A stretch of 64,000 bases of DNA from an uncultured Candidatus Peribacteria bacterium (GTDB lineage Bacteria; Patescibacteriota; Gracilibacteria; RBG-16-42-10): contig CAZERA010000001.1 in NCBI GenBank assembly GCA_964514565.1, positions 62,001-126,000 on the forward strand, read 5' to 3'. Below are positions 15,001 to 18,000 of the stretch, one piece after another. Within the stretch, counting starts at the first letter, position 1, and every line of letters starts with the position of its first letter. Made by a program: the position numbers.

Positions 15001-18000
15001 CCCAATAGTACAAAGCAATATTGATCACCAGGGTAAGTATTCCCCAAAACACAGCCACAGCCCAAATAGAAACGATAGCGGCGATGTTTCCTTGAATAGC
15101 CCACAAGAACAAACCAGTGAGCACCAAAACCAAAGAAAACGCCAAAGACCACAAGGTAAGCACGGTCTTTTTGATCAAGGCATACATACTAAAGAACACC
15201 AGTAACAATAAACCCAAAGCAGCAATTGCTATATCCAACCATAGCGATACTGCTGGGACAAAGAACAACTCTATTCTCAGCAACAAATAAACAATAAAGG
15301 TCAACATCAAAGCACTATACATACCTGCATAATAGTGACCAACCGCTCGAGCAACTTGTTTACCACAAAAAGCCAATGTTACTAAACTGATCACCAAAGT
15401 ACCCAAAACCAACCAGGTAACTGGGTCAGGTAAGGCACCTACACCTTGTACTAGCGCTCCGAAGTAAAGGTTTTGAGCAGATGAAGCAAGCAACATCCAC
15501 ATCACCGTCAGTAAAACTGTACCTACTTCCAATAGCACTAAATAGGTACCAGCTAATTTTTTTTGTACAGCAGGTGCTACCCGCTTACTAAGCAGAATAT
15601 AAAGAAAGCCACCTAAACCAAAACACTGTGATACAAAGATAAAAAATAATACATTGCTACTTGCAACCACTAAAGTAATCATCAGAAACACAGCGTGAGC
15701 TAAAGCATGACCAAGCCAATGTTCATCAGTGCTTTCGGTAGACCAGAAGCTAAAGAAACCAAGCCCAATGATACCGATCAAAAGCAAAAAGAAAGCAGTA
15801 AATATATCGATATGTATCGCAGTAGTAATAGTACGAATACCCTCAAACAACTGAAAATCCAAGCTAGTACCTAGATTGAACAACTGCCAACTCAAATAAA
15901 TCAGCAAGCCACTTCCAAGCAAACCCCAAAATAAAGAGGCCATGCGAGCTACATTCTTCCAACGACCAAACAAGATACTAAAGACGCTGCCGAGACCGAA
16001 TGAGGCGAGTGCAAGGTACAAACTATAAGATAGGGGCATATTCACTTAGAAATTCGTTTGGATTATAGTCTGGGGAGATAAGAAGTAAAAGGGAAGAGGT
16101 AAGAAGTGATTGAGCAAAGTGAGGAAGAATCAGTTTTTGTTAGAGAGAGTTTTTACGATGGCTGCTAATAAACGAATAATTTCTTCTACCTCATCGATCT
16201 CATCTTCAAGTGATTCAAGATAGAAGTCGCTAGCTTGTAGCAACATCAACCAATACTTAGTCTCAGCTGCTTCTTTCAATGCAATCCGATTTTTACTCAA
16301 AAAGTCCTTATGACTAGCAGCAAACCCAGCCTCAGCAATATTAGCCCCAATACTAGTGCCACTACGAACCAACTGTTTAGAAAGCAAGAACTCTCTCTGT
16401 CCCTGTAAGCGCGAAGCAAGCTTAATAATCCGTAAAGAAAAATAAAAACTCTTCTCATAAACAATACTAGAAGCCATAAAAAAGAAGTTAAGATCACCAT
16501 CCAGTATACAAATACAAAAATGAAATCGTTACTTCCCCAAATACATTTTTTACCTCTTCCCCCTTACTTCTTACCTCCCCAGCAAGGGGGGGCTTGGTAT
16601 CTCAAGCCAAATTATGCTAGAATATAAGGAAGGTCCAAAAAACCCCCAAAAATAAATACCTAAACATAACAGTATGTCATTCCTCTCTCGTCTCTCTAGT
16701 TTGTTTGCTCTTAAGCAAAAAACAGCCGTGAAGCTGATCGCGCTCATGAGTGTTATTGCCTTTGTCGCTAATTTGACTCCGGAGCTCTATCGAGATGTGC
16801 CTAGTCAAGCAGACGAAGGTAGCGGAGATGTGACAGCTGCGGCACCACCAACACCACCAACAAACAACTATATTCTGGTAGATACTTTAGGAAATGGGAA
16901 CCTCGCAACAGCTGCAACTTCATGTATCGTTCGTTTAGCAAATGCTGCCTATCCTACAACAACAGTAACAACTGGTTGTCATTTAGACCAGGCGATTAAA
17001 GTAGTTAATGACACTCCTGGCACCGATACATTTACAATTGCTTTTCACCCACTATCATTCAACCCTGCACCTTTTCATCTTGATCTAACAAGTCTATTAC
17101 CTAACATTGATAGAGCATCAGGAGGTCCAGTCATCTTGGATGGAGCTATGGGGGGATCGAATGTAATGACACTAAATGATAATACAGCTGGCAATAACCA
17201 CTTAAGTCACTTTTTCCGCATATCAAAGAGTGATACCCCTCAAACAGTAACAATTCAAAATTTCGCTTTCTCAAGTCTAGTCATGCCTGGCGCAGCAGCA
17301 ATTACATCAGATATTCTTTCGACAACAACTCATGTTGACCCAGCCGATATCAATAGCCTTAATATCAACCACAACTATTTTGGTACCCGTGATGGATTGA
17401 CTTTAGTAGGATCACAGGCCATTTGGCAAGCTGTGAAGGTGTATGTACCTGCTGGAATTGTGTCTAACATATCAATTACAAATAACGATATATTCAACAG
17501 TGTGGCTGGTATAGAAGTGGGTAGTAGTAGTGACTTTAACGATAAAAGCTGTATAGGTCAGGCATCAGGGTTGTATAATATTAGTGACAATATTATTGGG
17601 CTTAATAAAAACAAAGCGATTACTGATCGAAACTATTCTGGCCCCAATATTCAGGGAGCATGGAGTTTGTTCGGTGTGAAAGTATGTAATCTCAATAGAG
17701 CAGAAATTAAGAGAAATACTATTGCTAACTCTTTAGGATTACTTCCACTTCCTGATGTAGGTATTGATATTCAACAATCGGTACATTTAGTACAGGATAA
17801 TGATATCGGTGTTGTAAAAAACTCAGACGGTACATATGCAACAAATTTTGATTGGGGAATCGTCGGTTATGGAATTAGGGTAATAAAAAACGACGAAAAA
17901 TCATTTATTGTAAATAATAATATTGCTAATATATTTACTATACTAGCACCATCTGCTGTTAATCTTTATTGTACAAACATATTCCAGTCTATTTATGATC

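What a model noticed while it worked through the whole genome (the two positions that open the first line are those of the whole stretch)
16040..16620. 23S-rRNA-IVS-type four-helix-bundle genes (PF05635) sit inside the heptad-armed repeat elements
Two of the six PF05635 (23S rRNA intervening-sequence protein) genes lie exactly between the inverted heptad arms of the two repeat families that also occur as ORF-less palindromes elsewhere: g00071 (C1:78130-78477) between GARGTAA arms (C1:78079-78107 and 78553-78590) and g00610 (C2:66305-66649) between GAAAGTG arms (C2:66270-66305 and 66745-66774). Three more (g00013 after tmRNA, g00748, g00774 after tRNA-Met) are directly preceded by a heptad-armed hairpin of another heptad type. 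The ORF-less 130-150-bp elements look like internal-deletion derivatives, so PF05635 proteins are the candidate element-encoded factor of this repeat class, outside any rRNA gene.
Evidence so far: Flanks of all six PF05635 genes: g00071 upstream ...[sequence left out]..., downstream ...[sequence left out]...; the same arm ends and the adjoining AAATGTA and CAxACAyTTCTTACC junctions are seen in the 21 ORF-less copies. Arms within 260 nt: g00071 (both sides), g00610 (both sides), g00748, g00013. All six share a RATTTCATWWWTTG box ~45 nt before the start. Enclosure test over 1006 genes and five heptad families: 6 genes have inverted arms of one family within 160 nt of both ends, 2 of them PF05635 genes (2 of 6 versus 4 of 1000, one-sided Fisher p 4e-4). 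In three congeners 9 of 9 PF05635 genes inspected are preceded (6 clear, 1 degenerate; four right after a tRNA) or flanked (2: CAGAATT a [...]
(Added by a program. Inside this text positions count along the whole contig: contig position 62,001 is position 1 of the stretch shown here. "Call 12" and the like, gene names such as g00115 and contig names such as C1 are that model's own, and its searches are not shown. The text may have been shortened before it was handed on; [...] marks where a part breaks off. The agent that wrote the report below was given it as the finding of a first reader that could run no searches.)

Follow-up and report, generated by a model that had tools for sequence, protein, structure and literature searches.

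The report
Four-helix-bundle gene inside heptad-repeat hairpin
A small gene of the "23S rRNA intervening-sequence protein" family sits between two mirror-image runs of a 7-base repeat, far from any rRNA gene, and the same layout holds for this gene family in many bacterial phyla, which makes the protein a candidate partner for the unexplained heptamer repeats of bacteria.

Summary
A 115-aa PF05635/TIGR02436 gene (window 16130-16477, minus strand) lies between 39-nt inverted arms, each made of five GARGTAA heptads. Congeners lack this 536-bp unit at the same intergenic site. A test blind to heptads and families, scoring complementarity of each gene's two flanks, gave:
- Own genome: PF05635 genes rank 1, 5 and 6 of 965 genes.
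- Seven related genomes: they fill the top 15 of 377 genes.
- 80 loci from many phyla: 57 of 76 PF05635 genes pass, against 16 of 506 other genes.

Arms are typically 4-5 heptads. Nearly every gene has a different heptad, but all share the core nnA[AG]T[TG]n. In 16 genomes of the class, heptad-tract density tracks PF05635 copy number. Xanthomonas' published orphan GGGAATC repeat flanks its PF05635 gene.

Best reading: an IVS-type cassette outside rRNA, whose arms are probably the binding sites of the protein (pentameric in solved homologues), with about 22 dispersed ORF-less copies. Binding, RNase III cleavage and mobility are inferred, not shown. The ORF-less copies are not simple deletion derivatives. 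I found no published statement of this link.

The parts
16057..16592 (.). Whole cassette: a 536-bp segment absent from the orthologous intergenic site of two congeners. The conserved flanks stop at about 16056 and resume at CTTGGTAT, 16593.
   Evidence: alignment of the window with L147 (G001) and L148 (G002). The congeners carry an unrelated ORF-less piece of about 200 nt there, with a solo CAGAATT-type heptad array.
16070..16108 (.). Arm lying downstream of the gene's stop codon. On the + strand it holds five heptads: GAGATAA GAAGTAA AAGGGAA GAGGTAA GAAGTGA (16075-16109).
   Evidence: inverted repeat I1, direct repeat D1; tract C1:78079-78107.
16130..16477 (-). PF05635 / TIGR02436 gene of 115 aa, a four-helix bundle of the S23p / IVS-protein family.
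   Evidence: ORF. (Pfam E 4.8e-23). (TIGR02436 E 2.4e-28). (2rld E 2e-24). (AlphaFold2 model pLDDT 93.2; TM 0.90 to 2RLD, 0.78 to 2GSC, 0.70-0.77 to Avd chains).
16515..16527 (-). Box GATTTCATTTTTG, 50 nt before the start codon. It is shared by all six PF05635 genes and by some small GIY-YIG genes of this genus. It is probably a promoter or leader element.
16544..16582 (.). Arm lying upstream of the gene. In gene sense it reads CTGGGGAGGTAAGAAGTAAGGGGGAAGAGGTAAAAAATG.
   Evidence: In the sense RNA the two arms form a 33-bp closing stem (MFE -164.4 kcal/mol, z -5.0).
10741..10863 (.). ORF-less GARGTAA palindrome: 37-nt arms, a 49-nt interior and the inner hairpin TCCGCAATTGCGGA.
54829..54956 (.). 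ORF-less GARGTAA palindrome: 41-nt arms, a 46-nt interior and the inner hairpin TCCGCAATTGCGGA.
58664..58791 (.). ORF-less GARGTAA palindrome: 37-nt arms, a 54-nt interior and the inner hairpin TCCGCAATTGCGGA.
8350..8382 (+). Solo GARGTAA array with no complementary partner within 700 nt.
22424..22456 (+). GARGTAA array just after the 1910-aa gene. Its only partner is a weak 23-nt one.

Best explanation
The locus is an IVS-type cassette that sits between protein-coding genes rather than inside 23S rRNA. It is a 536-bp unit. It contains a gene for a small four-helix-bundle protein (PF05635 / S23p, with the Avd fold), preceded by its own upstream box. The gene is bracketed by two inverted arrays of five GARGTAA heptads.

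Proposed mechanism.
- The protein assembles into a ring of five subunits, as its solved homologues do.
- The ring recognises the tandem heptads of its own arms, one heptad per subunit. It reads a shared core A-R-T-K plus variable neighbouring bases that set the specificity of each paralogue.
- The same arms, dispersed without the gene (about 22 palindromes and about 20 solo arrays, mostly in 5' intergenic regions), are further sites for the same protein.
- When transcribed, the two arms pair into a long stem. That stem would be an RNase III substrate, as in the rRNA IVS, which would keep the insertion harmless.
- The unit and its ORF-less relatives turn over as mobile DNA.

Shown here: the architecture, the statistics, the heptad core and unit number, the co-occurrence across genomes, and the presence/absence at a syntenic site.
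Inferred, not shown: binding, stoichiometry, RNase III cleavage and the mobility mechanism.
For: Architecture..

Enclosure is specific to PF05635.
- Own genome: ranks 1, 5 and 6 of 965 (p 2.7e-6).
- Seven related genomes: the top 15 of 377 scored genes are all PF05635, that is 15 of the 29 scored PF05635 genes (p 3e-19).
- 80 loci from Cyanobacteria, Bacteroidota, Clostridia, Acidobacteriota, Verrucomicrobiota, Gammaproteobacteria and others: 57 of 76 against 16 of 506 at score >=15 (Fisher p 2e-47).
- Of those 57 arms, 47 have lag-7 identity >=0.7, and none does at lags 5, 6, 8 or 9.

Unit number. Tract medians are 31.5 and 32 nt, with a mode of 4-5 heptads.

Shared core. The 44 distinct heptads align to nnA[AG]T[TG]n with 4.24 bits, against 2.89 +/- 0.12 for shuffled heptads.

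Different heptads for paralogues in one genome.
- Own genome.
- G004 and G006.
- Moorena, six genes.

Protein and heptad similarity correlate. Mantel rho is 0.17, reached by 5 of 2000 permutations. The nearest protein neighbour has a heptad within 1 mismatch in 17 of 61 cases, against 4.9 expected.

Genome-level co-occurrence. Heptad tracts per 100 kb are 0, 0, 0, 0, 2 and 6 in six genomes without PF05635, and 9-42 in six genomes with 7-11 copies. Spearman rho is 0.81.

Prediction tested. The published orphan GGGAATC repeat of Xanthomonas flanks the single PF05635 gene of two Xanthomonas species.

Pentamer by homology.
- 2rld and 2gsc each hold 5 chains.
- The X. campestris S23p is described as a homopentameric toroid (PMC4990558, passage).
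- All five Avd protomers contact one RNA stem-loop using the same residues (preprint 10.1101/2023.10.23.563531, passage).

Stem. A 33-bp closing stem, z -5.0.

Coxiella precedent. The IVS there has tandem GACAGAT heptamers in its stem region, and RNase III cuts at the first repeat (PMC4990558, passages).

Turnover. The cassette is absent at the syntenic site in G001 and G002. ORF-less copies keep the same order of variant heptads, so they were copied as whole units.
Against: - No binding, oligomer or expression data exist for this protein. The complex prediction gave no verdict, and public reads gave nothing usable.
- There is no wobble bias. G:U-type mismatches number 58 in the sense RNA, against 67 A:C-type, and 177 are transversion-type, out of 2471 arm positions. 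So arm complementarity is not visibly maintained for a sense-RNA stem.
- Heptads can differ between quite similar proteins, for example L133 and L106. Specificity, if any, rests on few residues.
- Some arrays are far longer than five units, up to 10-23.
- Two heptad families of this genome have no PF05635 gene.
- A Ca. Parabeggiatoa assembly with TAACTGA arrays has no PF05635 hit. The two Microcystis PF05635 genes carry other heptads.
- 19 of 76 PF05635 genes in the broad set, and 14 of 29 in the relatives, score below 15.
- Other genes are occasionally enclosed by heptad arms: a Cys-rich 560-aa gene and a GIY-YIG gene.
- The protein is not basic overall; by my own count of the sequence, 15 K+R against 15 D+E.
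- No catalytic motif is known for the family, so mobility would need another enzyme.
Confidence: 0.5

Rival explanations
1. Passenger gene in an RNA-processing hairpin. The heptad hairpins are RNA-level structures: RNase III or other processing sites, insulators or stabilisers. The PF05635 gene survives only in their loops, because excision of the hairpin makes the insert harmless. The protein does something unrelated to heptads.
For: - The sense RNA closes into a 33-bp stem.
- In Coxiella the IVS stem is cut by RNase III and the protein seems not to be made (PMC4990558, abstract and passages).
- Subfamily-B genes sit right after tRNA or tmRNA genes with a hairpin in between: 2 of 6 in the own genome and 8 of 33 in relatives.
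- In Xanthomonas the cassette lies between accB and accC.
Against: - It does not explain why arms are heptadic at all: 47 of 57 arms are periodic at lag 7 and none at other lags.
- It does not explain the shared A-R-T-K core or why genomes without PF05635 lack heptad tracts.
- There is no wobble bias for the sense RNA.
- The protein family is well conserved across phyla with invariant polar residues.
Confidence: 0.22
2. Loop-targeting insertion. Heptad hairpins are an independent dispersed repeat class, and the PF05635 gene, with its box, is a small mobile module. It inserts into, or replaces, the loop of pre-existing hairpins, as the IVS does in rRNA helices 25 and 45.
For: - ORF-less copies have their own conserved inner hairpin that the gene-bearing copy lacks.
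- The sizes are bimodal, 110-150 nt against 500 nt.
- Each paralogue sits in a different heptad family.
- The same box precedes other small genes.
Against: - Genomes without PF05635 have few or no heptad tracts, so the hairpins do not look independent.
- Protein similarity tracks heptad similarity.
- Genomes with a single gene, such as Xanthomonas, carry the gene in the genome's one abundant family.
- No nuclease or recombinase is encoded in the unit.
Confidence: 0.18
3. No functional link. Heptad arrays arise by replication slippage in AT-rich spacers, and small genes with long spacers collect them by chance or by shared location.
For: - Heptameric repeats are reported as over-represented simple repeats in many bacteria, with slippage offered as the cause (PMC4692102, passages).
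- The number of heptamers varies between Coxiella strains (PMC4990558).
Against: - Enclosure is 57 of 76 against 16 of 506.
- The two arms of one gene use the same heptad in inverted order.
- The arrangement 5'-purine-rich arm ... pyrimidine-rich arm-3' holds in 62 of 69 cases.
- ORF-less copies share the order of variant units.
- Heptads share a core.
Confidence: 0.03
4. Remnant of a diversity-generating retroelement: the gene is an Avd that has lost its reverse transcriptase.
For: - The fold resembles Avd and DGR RNP chains (TM 0.70-0.77).
- PF05635 is the Pfam family most often seen beside DGRs (PMC10053308, passage).
Against: - No RVT_1 was found in the genome, which is 92.7% complete.
- There are six copies, none beside a template/variable repeat pair.
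- A profile of the family does not reach Avd by sequence.
Confidence: 0.02

Closest known systems
23S rRNA intervening sequences carrying an S23p ORF (Coxiella burnetii, Leptospira; PMC4990558, abstract and passages read)
   Same: - An ORF of the same protein family in the loop.
- Terminal inverted repeats that form a long stem (28 bp in Coxiella, 33 bp here).
- Tandem heptamers (GACAGAT) in the stem region upstream of the ORF.
- A unit of about 430-540 nt.
- The old idea that the ORF serves the element's mobility.
   Different: - This unit lies between protein-coding genes, not in helix 25 or 45 of 23S rRNA.
- It has its own upstream box.
- About 22 ORF-less copies of the same arms are dispersed in the genome.
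- Six paralogues each carry a different heptad.
- RNase III cleavage was shown there and is only inferred here.
REP / RAYT (REPIN) systems
   Same: - A single-copy gene is flanked by inverted copies of a short repeat that is also dispersed in many ORF-less doublets.
- Several gene-repeat pairs can coexist in one genome.
- Two IS200-like Y1 transposase genes scored as enclosed in my own test, which serves as a positive control for the method.
   Different: - The protein here is a 115-aa four-helix bundle with no known catalytic residues, not a Y1 transposase.
- The repeats are tandem heptads, not a single palindrome.
Avd, accessory protein of diversity-generating retroelements (4DWL, 8UB7/8UB8)
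   Same: - Four-helix-bundle fold (TM 0.70-0.77).
- A pentameric barrel that binds nucleic acid. All five protomers contact one RNA stem-loop through the same residues (preprint 10.1101/2023.10.23.563531, passages).
   Different: - There is no reverse transcriptase in this genome.
- A family profile detects no sequence similarity to Avd.
- No TR/VR pair is present.
Orphan heptamer repeats: GGGAATC in Xanthomonas and GGGGA(T/C)T in Nostoc (PMC4692102), TAACTGA in Beggiatoaceae, Cyanobacteria and Bacteroidetes (PMC4679880), STRR of cyanobacteria (recalled)
   Same: - Intergenic tandem heptamers, often in convergent inverted pairs, with unknown function.
- GGGAATC-type arms flank the Xanthomonas PF05635 gene.
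- TAACTGA is the complement of TCAGTTA, which fits the core nnARTKn.
   Different: - Those papers name no protein partner. PMC4679880 has no occurrence of 'four helix', 'S23' or 'intervening'.
- TAACTGA arrays are mostly direct repeats placed just before start codons.
- One TAACTGA-bearing assembly has no PF05635 hit.
Ring-shaped RNA-binding regulators that read tandem short repeats, such as TRAP (recalled, analogy only)
   Same: The proposed logic is the same: one subunit of a homo-oligomeric ring reads one repeat unit, so the number of repeats matches the number of subunits.
   Different: - The fold is unrelated.
- No binding data exist here.
- The strand and type of nucleic acid bound are unknown.

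Membership tests
PF05635 / TIGR02436 (23S rRNA IVS protein, S23p, four-helix-bundle protein) | Profile match above the curated cut-off | tested here: met
   Pfam 81.9 bits against a cut-off of 33.8. TIGR02436 98.5 bits against 24.
PF05635 / TIGR02436 | Four-helix up-down bundle fold like 2RLD and 2GSC | tested here: met
   AlphaFold2 model with pLDDT 93.2 and four helices. TM 0.90 to 2RLD and 0.78 to 2GSC.
PF05635 / TIGR02436 | Homopentameric ring | tested here: inconclusive
   The four-copy complex job gave no verdict. The only support is by homology: 2rld and 2gsc hold 5 chains each, and the pentamer is stated in PMC4990558.
23S rRNA intervening sequence (IVS) | Inserted in helix 25 or 45 of a 23S rRNA gene | tested here: not met
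   The locus lies between a 520-aa membrane-protein gene and a 1910-aa gene. The assembled part of the 23S gene is on contig C5 and has no heptad tract.
23S rRNA intervening sequence (IVS) | Terminal inverted repeats that form a long stem around an S23p ORF | tested here: met
   39-nt arms, 87% complementary. A 33-bp closing stem in the RNA fold, z -5.0.
23S rRNA intervening sequence (IVS) | Excision of the stem-loop by RNase III | not testable with these tools
   Public runs gave only two short contig pieces.
DGR accessory protein Avd | Adjacent reverse transcriptase with a template/variable repeat pair | tested here: not met
   No RVT_1 match in the genome, which is 92.7% complete.
REP/RAYT-like gene-repeat pair | Gene flanked by inverted copies of a repeat that is also dispersed without the gene | tested here: met
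   one gene-bearing GARGTAA element and about 22 ORF-less ones.
REP/RAYT-like gene-repeat pair | Encoded Y1 (HUH) transposase | tested here: not met
   The only Pfam match is PF05635.
Autonomous transposon with MITE derivatives | ORF-less copies are internal deletions of the gene-bearing copy | tested here: not met
   The interiors are not homologous. 16 of 22 ORF-less copies have their own inner hairpin, which the gene copy lacks.
Autonomous transposon with MITE derivatives | Target-site duplication at the ends | not tested
   The ends extend as an inverted repeat (CTTGGGAGG...CCTCCCAAG). I made no systematic search for a duplication.
Bacterial heptamer simple repeats (STRR-type) | Tandem 7-nt units in intergenic DNA | tested here: met
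   93 period-7 tracts against 0-22 for other periods. 134 of 159 tracts are intergenic in a genome that is 92% coding.

The most novel reading that the evidence does not exclude
PF05635 proteins are a pan-bacterial family of ring-shaped binders of tandem heptamers, one subunit per heptad. They read a fixed A-R-T-K core and a variable part that gives each paralogue its own repeat family. On this reading the classical 23S rRNA IVS is one landing site of a general gene-plus-arms element. It would also mean that many unexplained bacterial heptamer repeats (STRR-type, GGGAATC, possibly TAACTGA) are the cis sites of these proteins.
Probability: 0.4. Interest if true: 0.9.

Novelty: new variant of a known kind. 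Interest (0 to 1): 0.82.

Why it matters
Two old puzzles would meet.
- The S23p / IVS protein family has solved structures and thousands of members, up to 11 copies in 1-Mb genomes, but no known function.
- Heptamer repeats are reported as over-represented in bacterial genomes, and no partner is named (PMC4692102 and PMC4679880, passages).

The rule found here gives a direct, cheap test. Take each protein with its own flanking heptad array and use a paralogue's array as the control. If binding is specific, the family would be a natural set of orthogonal, repeat-reading nucleic-acid binders. The rRNA IVS would then be explained as one insertion site of a general element.

Tried and rejected
- Rfam at gathering thresholds found only a tRNA in the window.
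- The search for related loci with the mixed alignment A1 failed for lack of a conserved stretch. I then used the subfamily-A alignment A2, so the broad sample is biased towards subfamily A.
- The complex prediction of four copies gave no verdict: score 0.54 against a control at 0.48.
- Public RNA runs were uninformative. Three small-share holders were found. Laying them gave one 143-nt contig piece inside the ORF, from a run whose RNA nature is a guess, and one piece from a relative over 16637-16765. This says nothing about transcription or processing.
- I considered a GIY-YIG nuclease as a general co-passenger of the cassette. In relatives, 19 small GIY-YIG genes were scored. Three are enclosed but none by heptadic arms, and the box occurs in 2 of 19, both in the same genus. 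The idea is rejected as a general rule.
- The simple sigma-70 scan gave no convincing promoter between the upstream arm and the start codon.
- I did not check all nine congener genes for upstream hairpins. My hairpin detector often returned self-palindromes.
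Full report
WHAT IS AT THE COORDINATES

The window is G000:C1:62001-126000 of a 1.118-Mb, 41% G+C genome in 7 contigs.
- An ORF of 115 aa lies at 16130-16477 on the minus strand. It matches PF05635 (E 4.8e-23) and TIGR02436 'four helix bundle protein' (E 2.4e-28).
- It is bracketed by inverted arms at 16070-16108 and 16544-16582: 39 nt, 87% complementary, 435 nt apart.
- Each arm is a run of five 7-nt units of the type GARGTAA.
- The neighbours are a 520-aa membrane-protein gene (minus strand, ending at 16045) and a 1910-aa gene starting at 16674. So the unit is intergenic and not in rRNA.
- The assembled part of the 23S gene is on contig C5 and carries no heptad tract.

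THE SIX GENES OF THIS GENOME

The genome has six PF05635 genes.
- g00610 is enclosed by GAAAGTG arms.
Its reading frame runs on into the downstream arm.
- The other three belong to a second protein subfamily (N-terminus MFIF[EQ]xFPVY). In them a closed hairpin precedes the gene. It is clear for g00013 (after the tmRNA gene) and g00748, and weak for g00774 (after tRNA-Met).
- In all six genes a purine-rich heptad array lies just upstream of a box of the type RATTTCATWW(W)TTG, which sits 45-50 nt before the start codon.

IS IT MORE THAN CHANCE?

Period-7 tracts are a real feature of the genome. There are 93 at the 16-of-21 threshold, against 0-22 for periods 4-12. Of 159 tracts at a looser threshold, 134 are intergenic, although my ORF calls cover 92% of the genome.

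I then used a test that knows nothing of heptads or families. For every called gene of 70 aa or more, it takes the best local alignment between the 150-nt upstream flank and the reverse complement of the 150-nt downstream flank, each extended 40 nt into the ORF.
- Own genome: PF05635 genes rank 1, 5, 6, 73, 263 and 799 of 965. The probability of three of six in the top six is 2.7e-6.
- Seven genomes of the same family (33 hits, fetched with about 10 kb on each side; 377 of 411 called genes scored, 29 of them PF05635): the top 15 genes are all PF05635 (p 3e-19).
- 80 loci returned as the best relatives of the subfamily-A alignment. They come from Cyanobacteria, Bacteroidota, Clostridia, Acidobacteriota, Verrucomicrobiota, Chloroflexota, Planctomycetota, Fusobacteriota and Gammaproteobacteria. 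Here 57 of 76 PF05635 genes score 15 or more, against 16 of 506 other genes (Fisher p 2e-47).

The 16 other genes include direct neighbours that share an arm, one DDE and two IS200-type transposase genes (a positive control for the method), one further PF05635 gene and a PDDEXK_3 gene.

None of the PF05635 genes in 128 loci lies in a 23S gene. The single 23S-like hit is about 8.9 kb from its PF05635 gene.

Caveats:
- gene calls are plain ORFs;
- related genomes are not independent;
- the broad sample is biased to subfamily A.

PROPERTIES OF THE ARMS

- Of the 57 high-scoring arms in the broad set, 47 have lag-7 identity of 0.7 or more. None does at lags 5, 6, 8 or 9.
- Nearly every gene has another heptad: CAGAATT, TTACGAA, GCTAAGA, AATGCAA, AATTAGG, GTGGATA, AGTTAGG and so on.
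- Paralogues within one genome differ from each other.
- In the pooled set of 111 scorable genes, 74 have a flank score of 15 or more, and 48 have strict tracts on both sides. Tract lengths have medians of 31.5 and 32 nt, with a mode of 4-5 units. A few arrays reach 10-23 units.
- After optimal rotation, 44 distinct heptads align to nnA[AG]T[TG]n, with 4.24 bits against 2.89 +/- 0.12 for heptads with shuffled letters.
- The arrangement is 5'-purine-rich arm ... pyrimidine-rich arm-3' in 62 of 69 informative cases. This property reads the same on both strands, so it describes the element and not the orientation of the gene.
- Mismatches between arms show no wobble bias. There are 58 G:U-type in the sense RNA against 67 A:C-type, plus 177 transversion-type, among 2471 positions. 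Complementarity is therefore not visibly maintained for a sense-RNA helix. This weakens a purely RNA-structural reading.
- At this locus the sense RNA does fold with a 33-bp closing stem (-164.4 kcal/mol, z -5.0).

LINK AT THE LEVEL OF WHOLE GENOMES

PF05635 is found in 27 of 41 genomes of the class, with up to 11 copies per genome of about 1 Mb. I sampled 55-100 kb from each of 16 of these genomes, at places chosen without regard to PF05635.
- Six genomes without the family: 0, 0, 0, 0, 2 and 6 period-7 tracts per 100 kb.
- Six genomes with 7-11 copies: 9-42 tracts per 100 kb.
- Four genomes with 1-3 copies: 0-14 tracts per 100 kb.
- Spearman rho 0.81, p 1.3e-4, without correction for kinship.

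Protein similarity and heptad similarity are weakly but significantly correlated. Mantel rho is 0.17, reached by 5 of 2000 permutations. The nearest protein neighbour has a heptad within one mismatch in 17 of 61 cases, against 4.9 expected.

TURNOVER

- At the orthologous site, congeners G001 and G002 lack the unit. The conserved flanks stop at about 16056 and resume at 16593. Between them those genomes carry an unrelated ORF-less piece with a solo CAGAATT-type array.
- G002 has a PF05635 gene with CAGAATT arms elsewhere.

THE ORF-LESS COPIES

- The GARGTAA family has 62 tracts. They form 18 clear and 4 borderline palindromes of 110-150 nt, one element of 500 nt (this locus) and about 20 solo arms.
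- Three palindromes and two solo arms lie in the window.
- The copies share the order of variant units (GAGGTAA GAAGTAA AAGGGAA GAGGTAA ...), so they were copied as whole units.
- Their interiors are not homologous to the gene-bearing copy. Of 22, 16 carry an inner hairpin TCCRC-N4-GYGGA with compensatory variants (TCCGC/GCGGA, TCCAC/GTGGA, TCGAC/GTCGA). The gene copy has none. They are therefore not simple deletion derivatives.
- Closed hairpins sit between tandem genes (15), divergent genes (9) and convergent genes (1). The background is 623, 172 and 172. They favour 5' regions and are not typical terminators.

THE PROTEIN

- The model has pLDDT 93.2 and four helices.
- Its best structural matches are 2RLD (TM 0.90), 2GSC (0.78) and, further down, Avd and DGR RNP chains (0.70-0.77).
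- 2rld and 2gsc each hold five chains.
- The genome has no RVT_1 match, so this is not a DGR.

LITERATURE

What I read:
- Warrier et al. 2016 (PMC4990558; abstract and passages): the Coxiella 23S IVS has a 28-bp terminal stem, an S23p ORF and two to three tandem GACAGAT heptamers upstream of the ORF. RNase III cuts at the first repeat. The paper cites the X. campestris S23p as a homopentameric toroid, and cites the 1993 idea that the ORF serves mobility.
- Rehm et al. 2015 (PMC4692102; passages): GGGAATC repeats in Xanthomonas, many of them in convergent pairs. The paper states that no detailed literature on heptameric repeats exists.
- MacGregor 2015 (PMC4679880; abstract and passages): TAACTGA repeats of unknown function. 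It has no occurrence of 'four helix', 'S23' or 'intervening'.
- DGR cryo-EM preprint (10.1101/2023.10.23.563531; passages): all five Avd protomers contact one RNA stem-loop with the same residues.

Eight searches found no paper that links PF05635 to heptamer repeats outside the Coxiella IVS. The library holds open-access papers only. I could not see database curators' notes.

TWO TESTS OF THE PREDICTION

The prediction is that an abundant heptamer family has a PF05635 gene flanked by it.
- Met for GGGAATC. The single PF05635 gene of X. euroxanthea and X. arboricola, between accB and accC, has GGGAATC-type arms. A Luteimonas genome has GGGATTC-type arms. Six Moorena genes each have another heptad.
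- Not met for TAACTGA. A Ca. Parabeggiatoa assembly has no PF05635 hit. The two Microcystis genes have other heptads. One Polaribacter gene has only degenerate TCAGTWK/..ACTGA arms.
- TCAGTTA, the complement of TAACTGA, does fit the core.

MECHANISM

Shown: a gene-plus-arms unit that is specific to this protein family and is pan-bacterial. It is heptadic, with a shared core and about five units per arm. It co-occurs with dispersed arrays and is gained or lost at a syntenic site.

Inferred (about 0.5): the pentameric ring reads the tandem heptads, one unit per subunit. The arms and the dispersed copies would be its cis sites. When transcribed, the arms would form an RNase III stem, as in the rRNA IVS.

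Which nucleic acid is bound, and what moves the element, remain open. The rivals are a passenger gene in a processing hairpin, and a module that targets hairpin loops. They are scored in their own sections.

Noticed in passing
G000:C1:479108-479371, C1:604570-604848, C1:565604-565933 (own genome, outside the window): All three small stand-alone GIY-YIG genes of the genome share cassette features. Two have the same upstream box at 44 and 51 nt. One of these lies between two tRNA genes behind a TTATCCT/AGGATAA heptad hairpin. The third is enclosed by GGAAGGA-type arms of about 70 nt (rank 8 of 965). In relatives this is not general: of 19 small GIY-YIG genes, none has heptadic arms and 2 have the box.
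   Followed up: partly
window 16089-16062 (- strand): A sigma-70-like site (TTTACT, 16 nt, TATAAT; 10 of 12) lies partly inside the arm. It reads outward towards the neighbouring 520-aa gene that starts at 16045. The element may supply or disturb that gene's promoter.
   Followed up: no
window 16674-22406 (+): A 1910-aa protein ends in LPKTG followed by a hydrophobic stretch and a basic tail. This looks like a sortase-anchored giant surface protein. A GARGTAA array follows its stop codon at 22424-22456.
   Followed up: no
window 10741-10863, 54829-54956, 58664-58791: The ORF-less GARGTAA palindromes carry a small inner hairpin, TCCGCAATTGCGGA. Across 22 genomic copies it shows compensatory variants (TCCAC/GTGGA, TCGAC/GTCGA). 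This suggests a structure under selection whose role is unknown.
   Followed up: partly
window 31407-31445: A tract of CTCTGAC-type heptads (TAACTCTGACCTCTGCTCTCTGACCTCTGACC) belongs to the same family as the arms of the PF05635 gene g00605 on contig C2.
   Followed up: no
G000:C1:495171-496853 (outside the window): A Cys-rich 560-aa gene, with a 578-aa paralogue at C1:501009-502745, is directly flanked by inverted TAAAATT-type arms (rank 2 of 965). This heptad family has no PF05635 gene in the assembly.
   Followed up: no
G000:C1:478447-478695 (outside the window): A long array of GGCTCAT heptads, more than 20 units, is interrupted by an assembly gap of N. It lies next to a GARGTAA arm and a tRNA gene.
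   Followed up: no
L039, L040, L042, L044, L045, L051, L059 (relatives); L003, L004 (own genome): Subfamily-B PF05635 genes (N-terminus MFIFExFPVY) sit within about 250 nt downstream of tRNA-Thr, tRNA-Met, tRNA-Leu or tmRNA genes on the same strand. The position is syntenic across genera. This holds for 8 of 33 genes in relatives and 2 of 6 in the own genome.
   Followed up: partly
L090:8748-9119 (Propionigenium maris): A 123-aa PDDEXK_3 nuclease-family gene, 3.4 kb from the PF05635 gene, is also enclosed by inverted flanks (score 15).
   Followed up: no
L355, L356, L357 (Xanthomonas, Luteimonas): In these genomes the PF05635 cassette sits between accB and accC, the genes for biotin carboxyl carrier protein and biotin carboxylase. 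These genes are usually co-transcribed.
   Followed up: no
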